This document shows positions 39,768-63,035 of a stretch of 64,000 nt of DNA, in pieces; the first letter of the stretch is position 1; each line of letters opens with the position of its first letter. The notes below the pieces were generated by a model. It saw nothing but the letters and a program-made list of their open reading frames with translations, had not been told where the DNA came from and made no database searches. The position numbers and the translations under genes were made by a program. Source of the stretch: the human T2T-CHM13v2.0 reference genome, Homo sapiens; the NCBI RefSeq assembly GCF_009914755.1, contig NC_060947.1; one strand, 5' to 3'.

Positions 39768-39850
39768 CAACTTTACACTTCAAAGGCAGTCAGTGATGAA
39801 GCTGTACTTACACAAGATTCAGATGAGGAACCTTTTGTGGGAGAGCTCAG
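39768..39850 (+). CDS. PASD1: PASD1 coding exon 7 (83 nt) QLYTSKAVSDEAVLTQDSDEEPFVGEL(S)
   Basis: ttctgcag acceptor, AG|GTGAGA donor, phase 0-2. Confidence 0.94.
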
Positions 39851-39982
39851 GTGAGAGGTAGTATTGATAAAGCTAATGAAGATCTAGAATTCAATTTTAC
39901 TAAACGAAACTAAAACAAGAGAAATAACACCTACAGATATTTTTTTTCCCATCAAAATGAAAATGAAAAAAGAAACACAACG

Positions 39983-40284
39983 GGCCAGGGATGGTGGCTC
40001 ATGCCTGTAGTCCCAGAACTTTGGGAGGCTGAGGCAGGAGGATCCCCTGAGCCCAAGAGTTTGAGACCAGCTTGAGCAACATAGTGAGATCCTATTTCTA
40101 CAAAAAATACAAAAAAAATTAGCCAAGCATGGTGGCATGTGCTTGTAGTCCTAGCTATTTGGGATACTGATGTGGGAGGATCAGTTGAGCCCGGGATATC
40201 AAGTCTGCAGTGAGCAGTGATCATGCCACTGCACTCCAGCCTGGGCAACAGAGTGAGACCCTGTCTCTAAATAAATAAATAAAA
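39983..40284 (+). mobile_element. AluJ-like SINE
   Basis: Full Alu with AluJ-like gaggatcccctgagcccaagagtttgagacc. Confidence 0.93.
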
Positions 40285-41489
40285 CCAGAATAGCAGTCTA
40301 CTAGTCTGAACTTCCTTTCCCAGCTCATATAATTCACATTTTTCCAACAGAATGTAAATACAGGTGATTGGCTTTTTATTTTTTATTTTTTAAAAAAAGC
40401 ATTAAAGCAATAAATAGAGAAAACTTAACTGACCCAGGCATGTAATGACTTTCAAATTAAGGTAATGCGTTTTAATATACTACTTCATTACTTTTTTTTC
40501 TTGAAAAGAAAGGTAATGTTTAGACACTTTTAAATGGTAGAAGAGCAAGTATGCATTGTGGTAACTGCTAATTATACAGGCATTCCTCTTTTGTGAATCT
40601 AATGTGTTCTTTAAAATTTGTTTACTAACACATTTTCAGAGAATAGAAGCAAATATTCCACTATTTCACGTGAGAAAAGTAAAAATATATTCCTAACCCC
40701 CAGGAAAATGCCGATTAATTTGCCAGATACCACTAAAACCCCTTTATAAACTTATTTAACAACCCACAAAGGATTTCTGTAAAATATAAATTATTTATAA
40801 TACTATATAGTTATTCAGCATTTGATAAACTCATTGTTTGGCACATTTGTATGTAGTAAGCCACAATAGCATACACTATACAGTGTCTAGTATTGGGAGG
40901 GGATTACATTTTCCTTCTACGTTGCAGTGTACATGTACTGGTAAATAAATAATGAAGTAATATATTAAATATATTAAAGATGTGCACTGTATGCCAGTAA
41001 TATTTAGCAAAATAAAATAAGCAAACAAGAGAACTTTGCAAGAGATTTCTTGGGATCAAAGGCATGCTTGCATGAGGTCTGATGGTGAGAAGAGTGAGCT
41101 GGAAGCTGTGGTCACGGTTACTATTCGGGGGCAGGAGGAGGTAAGGAAGCCAGAGCTGGTGAAGGAATGAGTTAAACAGGAAATATTTGAGGCTCATCTG
41201 GATTTAAGAGAAGGCAGGGAGAATCTTCCATTCCCATCAGAAGAGTACAGAGGTGATTGGTTGTCAACCTTTAGCTGATGCTACACACAGAGCAGTGGGA
41301 TGAGAAACAGAACTCATGGTGGCTAGCTATTTACATCCCCTTTGCTTGATTAAAAATTCTTGCTAACATAAAGCTGCATTTGTATTAATAATTGTGTAAT
41401 TGTGTGTTGAATGTGACAATGTGACATGTCTGCTCATGCCATGATCACATTTATTTGTACCAGCATGCTGTTTTTATGGAATCTAATTT

Positions 41490-60510: not shown

Positions 60511-60721
60511 TGTGACTTTTATGTTCTACATCAAATATTTGCCATTTATACTGGCTTATGGAGAGGCACAAAATGTAAATTCACTGAATAATTTGGAAAA
60601 TATTTACTTGTATTTATATTCTTGATATTTAAGTCGGTGGATTTGAAACAAAACATACTTGCTTCACAACATATTGCTGTCAAAGAGTTTTGTCCAGTAA
60701 AACTTACTGCATCCTTTAATA

Positions 60722-60922
60722 CAGCACTGTCCAGTAGAACTTTCTGTGATGATTGCAGTGGCCTATAATCTGCTTCATCCAAGACGGCAGCCACTAGCTA
60801 CGGAGCACTTGAAATGTGGCTACTGTGACTGAAGACTAAATTTTAAATTGTATTTAATTTAAATTAACTTAAATTTTGATTTAGCCACATGTGTCTAGTG
60901 ACTGCCATATTGGACAATGCAG
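60722..60922. mobile_element. MER3-like hAT-Charlie DNA transposon remnant
   Basis: cagcactgtccagtagaactttctgtgatgat...gagcacttgaaatgtggct...tattggacaatgcag. Confidence 0.82.
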
Positions 60923-62947
60923 CAAGCAATATATTCCTATGTTGTTTATCTCAGATATAAAGTTATGCACTATTTAGAAGCCAATATAAAGGTATTAGAT
61001 TGCTTTTAAGCAACAAATAGAAGCTCCAGCTTGTTCATTAAAATAATTTTGTCAATCCAGGCAGACTTGGGATGAAGGATGTGAAAACATTTTGATTGAA
61101 TTGACTACTAAGTTTTATCTGTTTATTCCTTTATTTACTTAGCAAATATCCATTAAGCACATAGTAATTGCTCTCCATTGTGTGAAGTGCCTGGGATACA
61201 AGAAGTTTAAAGCATGTTCATTGCCTTGAAGAAATTAACCAGGTAGAAAAAGTAGATAGAAAGTAATAAGAAACATTCATATAAGGCAGAAGAGAGTTGA
61301 GAAAGAGGGAAGAGTCTAGGATGACTTGTAGATTTCAGTCTTGAGTGACTGGGTGGAAGGTGGCACTGTTCACCAAGTAGGAGACACTGGAGTGGGGAAC
61401 AGGAGTCTATACCATGTTGAATTGAGGTTAGATGCCCACATGCATGTGCTGAAGGCAGTTGGATATGTGGGTCTACAGCTTGGGAAGAGGTCTTGAGGTA
61501 GAGCTGTGGGAGTCACGCATAGTTGAAGCCAAGGGATACGACATGGTCTGCAAGGCAGATAATATAAAGAAATAACAGAACTCCAAGAGCAGCCCTGAAG
61601 AGGTACCAGCATTTATGATGTGAGAAAACATTCTGTTAGACTAACATAGCTTATAAATTTAGTTGGAGGTTGAAAAATTATTTTAAAAATATGTAATAAT
61701 ATAGGAATTTTGTTTTTAAATAATATGTGGGCAGATTTACAAGTGACTCCATTTATGTTTGTTTCATGACACTGAAAATCAAACCAGTAAGAAATATTTT
61801 ATATTTTACATATTTTATATTTTAATTAAATTAATATTAACAACATAAAATATTAATAAATATATTTAATTAAATATATACTTTTTATATATTTTAAACA
61901 TTCTGTATTCGATATAGTCCAGTTATACATGCAAATGAATGACTTAACTCATTAACTAGTTGTTTTATGCTGTGTAAATCAGTACTTCCTAAATATTACG
62001 TATTTTGGATATCCGAAATACATTTTTCAAGCTCTTAATTTTTTAGTGTTAGAAATAAATGATATAAATAAAATGGATTTTTGTCAGGGTCCTCTGAAAT
62101 ACATAATGGAAAATTTATCTCCATTGGATCAGAATTCACTTTTTGAAACCATGTGGCATAACCCAGGTTTTCTCTTAATTATGTGTCTTCTGAATATGCT
62201 TGGAAAGTTTTATATATATCATTTTGCCACTGTCTTGCTGCTCTGAGGTCTTGTTTTTTATAATATTTATTATCAGACTTTAATTTCTCATTTTGTGGAG
62301 TAATAGGGGCTTTTCTAAAGAAAAACTCGTGAAAACAAAATACATTTCAATAACAGAATCTCAGTTATGAAATTTTTAAGGCTTGAAACACTATTATCAA
62401 TATTAGAAATAAGATTCTCATTCATTCATATTTTCTCACCCATACTTAATTGGTGAAAAGTAAGCTAGTATTTCGACTCTAGTGTGCCATGAAGCTGCAT
62501 CTCACCCTGGGCAAATTTCTATCTAATTTTGATAGAAATGAATTGTTAATGAGCCCCGAGAATGGAGAGTTTCTCTAATTACAGGAAACAAAATTAAATT
62601 GGGCCTAAAGGCATTTTTTTTTTTGTAATTGCAGTTGGTTTAAAAATTGAAAAAGAATATTCACTCAAACACCTTGGCTTTAAAAATATTGGTTTGCTCC
62701 CCACTGTTAAAAAGGCATTGAGACCTGCAGCAAACTTCATTCTAATGAGGGTCCAGATGATTTTTTTTTTTGTAGATGTGTAGAACAACTCTGTGGGAAA
62801 AATGATACCTCAAAGATTAATGATGTTCTGTAGTAGGGAAAATAAAACAAATAGTTTTTATTTGAACCTTTTTATTGTATGATAGAAAATTTTGATTTAA
62901 ATGGCGAGTGAGATATGCTTACCATCTCTCTTTTTTCCTATTTATAG

Positions 62948-63035
62948 TAGCTCTCAAGGTCAAAGAGGACACACTAGCATGAAAGCCGTGTACGTTGAAC
63001 CCGCTGCTGCTGCTGCTGCTGCTGCTATCTCAGAC
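62948..63035 (+). CDS. PASD1: PASD1 coding exon 8 (88 nt) (S)SSQGQRGHTSMKAVYVEPAAAAAAAAISD
   Basis: Pyrimidine tract + TAGTAG acceptor, GAC|GTATGT donor, phase 2-0; includes (GCT)8; matches the recalled PASD1 sequence. Confidence 0.93.
63003..63026 (+). repeat. (GCT)8 coding trinucleotide repeat encoding poly-Ala
   Basis: Eight perfect GCT codons in PASD1 exon 62948-63035. Confidence 0.97.

What the first reader, a model, noticed from the sequence alone, without database searches (positions are those of the whole stretch)
39768..63035. Frame-neutral route for PAS-B loss, with the flanking 83-nt exon retained but rewritten
Seen: the exon at 39768-39850 ends in phase 2 and the exon at 62948 starts in phase 2, with the two fossil exons between them. 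Their reconstructed ancestral lengths (107+148=255 nt) sum to a multiple of 3, so skipping both preserves the frame. The retained 83-nt exon has the length and phases expected for the CLOCK/NPAS2 exon encoding the start of PAS-B (recalled EMC.[22 protein letters not shown]). It now encodes an acidic, apparently unrelated linker. Inference: an in-frame skipped isoform was fixed, after which the orphan PAS-B start diverged rapidly.
Basis: inference. Interest (0 to 1): 0.7.

Follow-up and report, generated by a model that had tools for sequence, protein, structure and literature searches.

The report
Relics of PASD1's lost PAS-B exons
The human PASD1 gene still carries, inside one long intron, the decayed remains of the two exons that once encoded most of its second PAS domain, and the small exon just before them survives in a heavily altered form.

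Summary
The exon at 39768-39850 is 83 nt, phase 0->2. The exon at 62948-63035 starts in phase 2.

In human CLOCK and NPAS2, PAS-B is encoded by exons of exactly 83, 107 and 148 nt, in phases 0->2, 2->1 and 1->2. The 23-kb PASD1 intron holds two single-copy relics of the 107- and 148-nt exons. They lie in order on the + strand, at 55333-55432 (100 nt) and 60010-60152 (143 nt). Both keep AG/GT and both carry stops and indels.

The 83-nt exon is the true orthologue of the CLOCK/NPAS2 exon. In-register identity to CLOCK is 42/83 nt against a null of 22 +/- 4. Other eutherians keep ELC..KE at its start and, in some, LDHR at its end. "Unrelated" is therefore too strong.

It has lost more ancestral bases than the dead exons: 33/63 kept against 133/179, p 0.0016.

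No PAS-B was found in 19 of 19 eutherian PASD1 proteins. All 3 of 3 sauropsid PASD1 proteins have it.

That a skipped isoform was fixed first is plausible but not shown. This is a tidy case of a known kind of event and of moderate interest.

The parts
37257..37384 (+). Last PAS-A exon of PASD1 (128 nt, phase 1->0). It is the counterpart of the 119-nt CLOCK/NPAS2 exon ending ..ATPQFIK/LK.
39768..39850 (+). Retained 83-nt exon (phase 0->2), orthologue of the CLOCK/NPAS2 83-nt exon that encodes the inter-PAS linker and the first strands of PAS-B. It now encodes QLYTSKAVSDEAVLTQDSDEEPFVGELS, with 7 acidic and 1 basic residue. The DSDEE core is conserved among eutherians.
   Evidence: length, phase. 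(42/83 in-register identity to CLOCK; null 22.1 +/- 4.1). (phmmer alignment to CLOCK 4f3l_A runs to residue 193)..
39851..62947 (+). 23.1-kb intron that holds the two relics. The equivalent span in CLOCK is about 2.4 kb of introns plus the two exons.
55333..55432 (+). Relic of the 107-nt PAS-B exon. It is 100 nt, flanked by AG and GT, with a net 7-nt deletion. Read in the ancestral phase it meets a stop at its 7th full codon, and a TAA replaces the Tyr codon of GTSGYDYYH. Identity is 65.7% to the CLOCK exon and 60% to the NPAS2 exon.
60010..60152 (+). Relic of the 148-nt PAS-B exon. It is 143 nt, flanked by AG and GT, with a 2-nt insertion and a 7-nt deletion, and it reaches TGA after the frameshift. 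It still reads [25 protein letters not shown].. Identity is 68.8% to the NPAS2 exon and 64.5% to the CLOCK exon.
62948..63035 (+). First exon after the lost domain (88 nt, phase 2->0). It is the counterpart of the 76-nt (CLOCK) and 85-nt (NPAS2) exon that begins ..SYAEVRAE. It contains a (GCT)8 poly-Ala run.

Best explanation
PASD1 is the eutherian form of a third member of the CLOCK/NPAS2 gene family. Its ancestor had the family's standard layout, in which PAS-B is written in three exons of 83, 107 and 148 nt.

Before the living placental orders diverged, the 107- and 148-nt exons stopped being spliced in. Together they are 255 nt, or 85 codons, so the reading frame ran on from the 83-nt exon into the next exon. 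The two abandoned exons then decayed in place as pseudoexons and are still recognisable at 55333-55432 and 60010-60152.

The 83-nt exon could not be dropped as well without breaking the frame (83 and 338 are not multiples of 3), so it stayed, with its length kept. Its first 11 codons, the linker between the PAS domains, changed moderately. The codons that used to form the first hydrophobic strands of PAS-B (..[12 protein letters not shown]) lost their structural role and were replaced by a polar, acidic stretch. The core of that stretch, DSDEE, has since been conserved.

Shown: the exon homologies, phases, relics, their lesions, and the taxonomic pattern.

Inferred: that joint skipping preceded decay, that the frame requirement is why the 83-nt exon survived, and that selection for solubility or a new acidic motif drove its rewriting.
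For: - Exon layout. CLOCK is 92/90/121/114/119/83/107/148/76 and NPAS2 is the same with 85 last. PASD1 is 89/90/100/111/128/83/(100)/(143)/88. The phases are identical throughout.
- Relics. They lie in the right intron, order and strand, keeping AG/GT exactly at the homologous boundaries. They are single copy. The larger one is the third-best match to the NPAS2 148-nt-exon peptide genome-wide, E 2.6e-6.
- Orthology of the 83-nt exon. In-register identity to CLOCK is 42/83; only 2 of about 63,900 window 83-mers reach that. phmmer aligns PASD1 14-193 to mouse CLOCK 68-252, running 11 residues into this exon. Eutherian sequences keep ELC..KE and, in 3 of the 17 aligned, DHR. The segment is 28 residues long in 13 of 17 eutherians.
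- Timing. 17 of 17 plus 2 of 2 eutherian PASD1 proteins show no second PAS domain, while 3 of 3 sauropsid 'PASD1' proteins have HLH + PAS + PAS_11. Of 21 further library proteins scanned, 6 had PAS-A only, 1 matched no family, and 14 had PAS_11. None was eutherian-like with PAS-B.
- Same gene lineage. The split {eutherian + sauropsid PASD1} | {CLOCK, NPAS2, Drosophila Clk} has 98/98 support.
- Faster change than the dead exons. At sites where CLOCK and NPAS2 agree, the 83-nt exon keeps 33/63 (gapped alignment) or 30/64 (ungapped) against 133/179 for the relics, Fisher p 0.0016 and 4e-5.
- Later constraint. The DSDEE core has mean pairwise identity 0.69 among 17 eutherians, against 0.21-0.41 for the rest of the exon.
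Against: - The order of events (skipping first, decay later) cannot be read from one genome. A mutation in a splice signal or enhancer of either exon could have started it.
- Retention of AG and GT at both relics has about an 11% chance at the observed decay, so it is uninformative.
- The excess change of the 83-nt exon is weaker when it is aligned to NPAS2 (33/55 against 134/180, p 0.043). It rests on few sites and is measured in the human lineage, where primates diverged further than other orders.
- The whole retained N-terminal region sits on a very long eutherian stem (1.43 changes per column). In non-primate eutherians the exon's identity to gecko PASD1 (6-8/26) is close to that of three PAS-A-region exons (19-37%).
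- The Pfam PAS_11 genome scan did not list the relics (0 of 23 matches on chrX).
- No marsupial or monotreme sequence was identified, and no sauropsid genomic DNA was available to check exon layout.
- No structure or disorder prediction could be run.
Confidence: 0.8

Rival explanations
1. Same relics, different cause. A single disabling mutation in a splice site, branch point or exonic enhancer, or a coding lesion in one of the two exons, came first. The only transcripts that kept a reading frame were those skipping both exons. There was no pre-existing in-frame isoform that was 'fixed'.
For: Skipping either exon alone shifts the frame (107 and 148 nt), so any lesion in one would select for loss of both. 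Both relic donors today lack the usual G at +5 (gtgtat, gtatta).
Against: CLOCK's own 148-nt exon donor (gtaata) also lacks +5 G. AG and GT are intact at both relics. No lesion can be dated from one genome.
Confidence: 0.35
2. The rewriting of the 83-nt exon is not special. It simply shares the gene-wide acceleration of an X-linked, testis-expressed gene, and the linker is evolving nearly neutrally under a length constraint only.
For: The eutherian stem is 1.43 changes per column over bHLH-PAS-A. Among eutherians the exon is the least conserved N-terminal segment (0.39 mean pairwise identity) and matches the next exon (0.41). Non-primate identity to gecko PASD1 (6-8/26) is near that of exons e1, e3 and e5.
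Against: It changed more than the truly unconstrained relics (p 0.0016 to 4e-5). It fell from the most conserved class (22-23/26 between paralogues) to the least. DSDEE is conserved at 0.69.
Confidence: 0.3
3. The expressed 83-nt exon is not the old PAS-B start. The real relic of that exon lies at about 46302-46322 in the intron, and the present exon is new or a duplicate.
For: blastn of the CLOCK 83-nt exon hits 46302-46322 + (19/21 nt, E 0.004 for the window). This is the fourth-best of all hits and collinear with the other relics. The translation SAMWKFLFQDLR resembles [12 protein letters not shown].
Against: The 21-mer sits collinearly inside a dispersed repeat. Positions 46265-46345 match chr12 at 75% over 84 nt, spanning both flanks, and 46264-46398 matches window 32800-32945. 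There is no match to the NPAS2 exon there. The expressed exon has the exact length, phases and in-register identity expected of the orthologue.
Confidence: 0.05
4. The relics are not in-situ remains. They are a piece of NPAS2 or CLOCK genomic DNA copied into the PASD1 intron.
For: The PAS-B residues are so conserved that the relics cannot be assigned to PASD1 rather than NPAS2/CLOCK by sequence.
Against: They lie in exactly the homologous intron, in order and on the coding strand. They are separated by an intron and bounded by AG/GT, so they are not a processed copy. Identity of only 60-69% to both paralogues rules out a recent copy. Sauropsid orthologues carry PAS-B at this place.
Confidence: 0.02

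Closest known systems
CLOCK and NPAS2 (bHLH-PAS circadian activators), exon architecture of PAS-B
   Same: The exon order and all intron phases are identical from the bHLH end to the exon after PAS-B. The 83-nt exon has the same length. The relics match the 107- and 148-nt exons at the same boundaries.
   Different: PASD1 no longer splices the 107- and 148-nt exons, its protein has no PAS-B, and the 83-nt exon no longer encodes ..[17 protein letters not shown]. Four PAS-A-region exons differ by whole codons (89/100/111/128 against 92/121/114/119).
Non-mammalian 'PASD1' (gecko P0063, grouse P0064, snake P0067; an amphibian PASD1 is described in PMC13663383, passages read)
   Same: It groups with eutherian PASD1 against CLOCK, NPAS2 and fly Clk (98/98). 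It shares ELC at the start of the 83-nt-exon segment.
   Different: It keeps HLH, PAS-A and an intact PAS-B (PAS_11, E about 1e-24) and evolves slowly, with branches of 0.02-0.15 against the 1.43 eutherian stem. Its exon layout could not be checked here.
Vestigial exons / pseudoexons left in introns after constitutive exon loss (a general phenomenon; examples recalled, not looked up here)
   Same: The relics are homologous to working exons of paralogues, sit in place and in order, carry stops and frameshifts, and are absent from the annotated mRNA.
   Different: Here two adjacent exons were lost as a frame-neutral pair, removing most of a folded domain. The orphaned neighbouring exon stayed coding and was remodelled.

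Membership tests
CLOCK/NPAS2-type gene architecture | PAS-B is written in three exons of 83, 107 and 148 nt with phases 0->2, 2->1 and 1->2 | tested here: met
   CLOCK and NPAS2 boundaries. PASD1 83-nt exon is phase 0->2. Relics of the other two lie at the homologous AG/GT limits.
CLOCK/NPAS2-type gene architecture | Same intron phases in the bHLH-PAS-A exons and in the exon after PAS-B | tested here: met
   PASD1 phases are 1->0, 0->0, 0->1, 1->1, 1->0 and then 2->0. CLOCK and NPAS2 lengths of 92/90/121/114/119 and 76/85 give the same phases, and their spliced translations have no stop.
PAS-B domain (Pfam PAS_11, PF14598) | The protein matches the domain model over the curated cut-off C-terminal to PAS-A | tested here: not met
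   Human PASD1 and 18 other eutherian proteins show PAS-family matches only in the PAS-A region. The genome scan with PF14598 listed no chrX match among 23.
Pseudoexon (vestigial exon) | Significant homology to a functional exon of a paralogue, in the corresponding intron, on the same strand and in order | tested here: met
   E 4e-12 and 1e-5; genome-wide E 2.6e-6
Pseudoexon (vestigial exon) | Disabling lesions when read in the ancestral phase | tested here: met
   Reading exon A, relic B, relic C and the next exon through meets the first stop at codon 35, with 3 stops in all. There are net 7-nt and 5-nt length changes.
Pseudoexon (vestigial exon) | Not included in mature mRNA | not testable with these tools
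   Only the supplied RefSeq table (one of two transcripts) shows them absent. No RNA data were available.
PASD1 orthologue group | Eutherian and non-mammalian PASD1 group together, apart from CLOCK and NPAS2 | tested here: met
   Bipartition support is 98/98 on 182 columns and 20 sequences. Caveats are the long eutherian branch and that only 3 sauropsid, 3 CLOCK and 3 NPAS2 sequences were used.

The most novel reading that the evidence does not exclude
After PAS-B was cut away, the orphaned strand-coding part of the 83-nt exon was not merely freed. It was driven by selection, faster than the neutral decay of its dead neighbours, into a new acidic serine motif: DSDEE, human residues 199-203. 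This fits the S-x-x-acidic pattern of casein kinase 2 sites (recalled, not tested). The motif is now a conserved functional element of the PASD1 repressor, sitting on the face of PAS-A where CLOCK would carry PAS-B.
Probability: 0.3. Interest if true: 0.5.

Novelty: new member of a known kind. Interest (0 to 1): 0.38.

Why it matters
PASD1 is a cancer-testis protein reported to repress CLOCK:BMAL1 by mimicking CLOCK. I read passages in PMC6406328 that cite Michael et al. 2015; the 2015 paper itself was not held.

CLOCK's PAS-B is part of its tandem-PAS dimerisation module, and from recall it is also contacted by cryptochrome. How PASD1 came to lack that domain therefore bears on how it can mimic CLOCK without acting like it.

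The relics give physical proof that the loss happened inside this gene. They also give a rough clock for when: about 0.24 differences per site at formerly conserved positions. The exon arithmetic explains why 28 residues of the old domain boundary are still translated.

The case is also a clean example for annotation pipelines of how exon phase decides which domain deletions are survivable.

I found no description of these relics in five full-text searches. The main PASD1 paper and subscription journals were not searchable.

Tried and rejected
- A third relic at 46302-46322 (the CLOCK 83-nt-exon 3' part) looked significant by blastn (E 0.004). I rejected it because the 21-mer lies collinearly within a dispersed repeat that has copies on chr12 and at window 32800-32945.
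- Assigning the relics to PASD1 rather than to CLOCK or NPAS2 by sequence failed. The residues are too conserved in all three.
- The genome scan with Pfam PAS_11 did not pick up the relics. The exon-peptide search did.
- Structure prediction of the linker was not possible. The tool was not accepting jobs, so the disorder of residues 183-210 is not assessed.
- Michael et al. 2015 could not be opened by PMC id or DOI.
- A search for relics of the bHLH-coding N-terminus of non-primate PASD1 in window 1-15843 found nothing.
- The library search without names could not tell marsupials from placentals, so the loss is bracketed only between the amniote ancestor and the placental radiation.
- The first tblastx outputs were swamped by Alu matches and were replaced by a uniqueness filter.
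Full report
**What was claimed.** It claimed that two decayed exons lie between them, with ancestral lengths of 107 and 148 nt summing to a multiple of three. It also claimed that the retained 83-nt exon corresponds to the CLOCK/NPAS2 exon that begins PAS-B but now encodes an unrelated acidic linker.

**The annotated exons.** From the coding parts in the supplied table, the exon at 39768-39850 is 83 nt, flanked by AG and GT, and runs from phase 0 to phase 2. The exon at 62948-63035 is 88 nt and runs from phase 2 to phase 0. 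The 83-nt exon encodes QLYTSKAVSDEAVLTQDSDEEPFVGELS, with seven acidic residues and one basic.

**CLOCK and NPAS2.** The window's genome is held. A scan with Pfam PAS_11 located the last PAS-B exon of NPAS2 (C2) and of CLOCK (C4). I fetched 60 kb around each and compared them by tblastx, keeping only hits unique in both loci because Alu matches swamped the raw lists.
- With the splice sites read directly, PAS-B is encoded in both genes by exons of exactly 83, 107 and 148 nt, in phases 0->2, 2->1 and 1->2.
- The full series from the end of the bHLH is 92/90/121/114/119/83/107/148/76 in CLOCK, and the same with 85 last in NPAS2.
- Splicing the nine exons in silico gives 316 and 319 residues without a stop.
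- PASD1 reads 89/90/100/111/128/83/.../88 with the same phases at every junction.
- By arithmetic, 107+148 = 255 = 85 codons. Neither 107, 148, 83 nor 338 (all three exons) is divisible by three.
- A four-exon skip of 414 nt (CLOCK) or 423 nt (NPAS2) would also be in frame.

**The relics.** tblastn of the six CLOCK/NPAS2 exon peptides against the whole window, both strands, gave its best hits at 60012-60104 + (E 4e-12; [31 protein letters not shown]) and 55366-55431 + (E 1e-5; GTSD*DFYHVDDLCLLFKCDEY).
- blastn agreed, with E 3e-13 and 3e-6, while unrelated hits reached at most 25.6 bits.
- Whole-exon alignment places the relics at 55333-55432 (100 nt) and 60010-60152 (143 nt). Each is preceded by AG and followed by GT exactly where CLOCK and NPAS2 have their splice sites.
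- The first relic has a net 7-nt deletion, and a TAA replaces a conserved Tyr codon. The second has a 2-nt insertion and a 7-nt deletion and runs into TGA.
- Read through in the ancestral phase, the first stop comes at codon 35, seven codons into the first relic.
- Identity is 65.7% and 60% (first relic to CLOCK and NPAS2) and 64.5% and 68.8% (second relic). CLOCK and NPAS2 are 75-77% identical to each other in these exons.
- Both relics are single copy in the genome by DNA search.
- In a six-frame search of all 3.1 Gb, the NPAS2 148-nt-exon peptide finds the PASD1 relic third (E 2.6e-6). It comes after NPAS2 and CLOCK and ahead of every other bHLH-PAS gene.
- The Pfam model itself did not list the relics.

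**Is the 83-nt exon the old PAS-B start?** Position, length and phases say so, and the sequence agrees.
- Aligned in register without gaps, it shares 42 of 83 bases with the CLOCK exon and 33 of 83 with the NPAS2 exon.
- All 83-mers of the window average 22.1 +/- 4.1, and only two of about 63,900 reach 42.
- phmmer aligns human PASD1 residues 14-193 to mouse CLOCK 68-252 (PDB 4f3l_A, E 4e-24). The alignment runs, in register, through the first 11 residues of this exon and stops where CLOCK's FTSRHSLEW.. begins.

**A rival lead, rejected.** The CLOCK 83-nt exon also hits 46302-46322 + (19 of 21 bases, E 0.004). This hit is collinear with the relics and reads SAMWKFLFQDLR against [12 protein letters not shown].
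- The 21-mer lies collinearly inside a dispersed repeat.
- Positions 46265-46345 match a chr12 locus at 75% over 84 nt, covering both of its flanks.
- Positions 46264-46398 match window 32800-32945.
- The NPAS2 exon does not match there.
- I take it as a chance resemblance within a repeat, and put the chance that it is a real relic at about 5%.

**Other species.** A single-exon query recovered the stored human protein. Searches with it, and with an alignment of 17 eutherian orthologues, recovered PASD1 from primates, carnivores, cetartiodactyls, perissodactyls, bats, a mole, pangolin, lagomorphs, a squirrel and an anteater. They also recovered proteins named PASD1 from a gecko, grouse and a snake.
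- By Pfam, 17 of 17 and 2 of 2 eutherian proteins have PAS-family matches only in the PAS-A region.
- 3 of 3 sauropsid proteins have HLH, PAS and PAS_11 (E about 1e-24).
- A paper on salamander clock genes lists an amphibian PASD1 with bHLH, PAS-A and PAS-B (PMC13663383, passages read).
- A profile search of 1.84 billion unnamed representatives gave 610 proteins at E <= 0.001. I scanned 21 of the top 150: 6 had PAS-A only, 1 matched nothing and 14 had PAS_11. None looked eutherian-like with a PAS-B. Species cannot be told in that library, so marsupials and monotremes remain unplaced.
- A maximum-likelihood tree of the bHLH-PAS-A region (20 sequences, 182 columns) separates eutherian plus sauropsid PASD1 from CLOCK, NPAS2 and fly Clk with 98/98 support.
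- The same tree puts eutherian PASD1 on a stem of 1.43 changes per column.

**How far the 83-nt exon was rewritten.** Sauropsid PASD1 reads [28 protein letters not shown].
- Eutherians read, for example, ELCPVKEEVEE.. (anteater), ELCTAKEAAEDIPAIEDSDEEHLSMEHR (horse) and ELFTAKESNKDALLTQDSDEEYLSLDHR (camel).
- The linker third is therefore still homologous, and the last three or four codons are too in several orders.
- The strand-forming middle (..SRHSLEWKF..) has been replaced by an acidic stretch. Primates have changed further.
- The segment is 28 residues long in 13 of 17 eutherians.
- Identity to gecko PASD1 is 2-8 of 26 for eutherians but 22-23 of 26 for CLOCK and NPAS2. That is the largest drop of any exon.
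- Among eutherians the exon is the least conserved N-terminal segment (0.39 mean pairwise identity), but DSDEE stands at 0.69.

**Rate against the dead exons.** I counted sites where CLOCK and NPAS2 agree.
- The relics keep 131 of 173 bases, a p-distance of 0.243 and a Jukes-Cantor distance of 0.29.
- The 83-nt exon keeps 30 of 64 ungapped, 33 of 63 when aligned with gaps to CLOCK, and 33 of 55 when aligned to NPAS2.
- The relics keep 133 of 179 and 134 of 180 in the matching alignments.
- Fisher p values are 4e-5, 0.0016 and 0.043 respectively.
- A core PAS-A exon keeps 50 of 62.
- So the translated exon has changed more than the abandoned ones, which fits selection-driven remodelling.
- The sample is small, it is measured in the human lineage, and the gene-wide acceleration is a confound.
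- From recall only, a decay of about 0.25-0.3 per site is of the order seen in old mammalian-wide repeats. That agrees with a loss before the placental radiation.

**Mechanism.**
- Shown: in-situ decay of two adjacent exons whose joint removal keeps the frame, and retention of the flanking exon with its length.
- Inferred: that joint skipping came first, as a fixed isoform, rather than following a lesion in one exon. The intact AG and GT at both relics have about an 11% chance at the observed decay (0.757 to the eighth power) and decide nothing.
- Inferred: that the frame requirement explains why the 83-nt exon persists.
- Inferred: that exposed hydrophobic strand residues were replaced for solubility, or to make a new acidic motif. 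The fit of DSDEE to the casein kinase 2 pattern is recalled, not tested.

**What is known.** PASD1 has been described as a single-PAS protein closest to CLOCK and NPAS2 (PMC2364759, passages read). It has also been described as a repressor of CLOCK:BMAL1 through a CLOCK exon-19-like coiled coil (PMC6406328, passages read, citing Michael et al. 2015, which was not held).
- Five full-text searches found no account of the intronic relics or of the exon-phase argument. Subscription papers and bioRxiv supplements were not searchable.

**Verdict.** It is a new, well-documented instance of a known kind of event (exon loss leaving pseudoexons), of moderate interest.

Noticed in passing
window 46264-46398 (and 32800-32945; L036 on chr12): An old dispersed repeat whose copy at 46302-46322 happens to match 19 of 21 bases of the CLOCK 83-nt exon. 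It could be mistaken for a third fossil exon.
   Followed up: yes
window 1-19051; proteins P0052, P0035, P0020 against P0001, P0018, P0019: Non-primate PASD1 proteins carry about 55 extra N-terminal residues, a degenerate HLH (anteater Pfam HLH E 5e-5). Primate proteins, including lemurs, start at MKMRGEKRR/MRMGKKERR. tblastn found no relic of that N-terminus in the window upstream of 18959.
   Followed up: partly
window 27282-27350, minus strand: A weak peptide match (E 0.03) to the NWIPSFH.. segment of the exon at 18963-19051, inside a stretch masked as repeat. It is probably chance.
   Followed up: no
window 63004-63027: A (GCT)8 run encodes eight alanines in the exon after the lost domain. 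The alanine run differs in length among eutherians in the alignment.
   Followed up: no
G000:C2:101422874-101422880 (L034): The NPAS2 exon that ends PAS-A (..PQFLK) is followed by GC rather than GT (gcaagt), apparently a GC-AG intron. The spliced translation is open.
   Followed up: partly
tree: Eutherian PASD1 sits on a stem of 1.43 changes per column in the bHLH-PAS-A region. Sauropsid PASD1 branches are 0.02-0.15. This is a very strong acceleration that coincides with the loss of PAS-B.
   Followed up: partly
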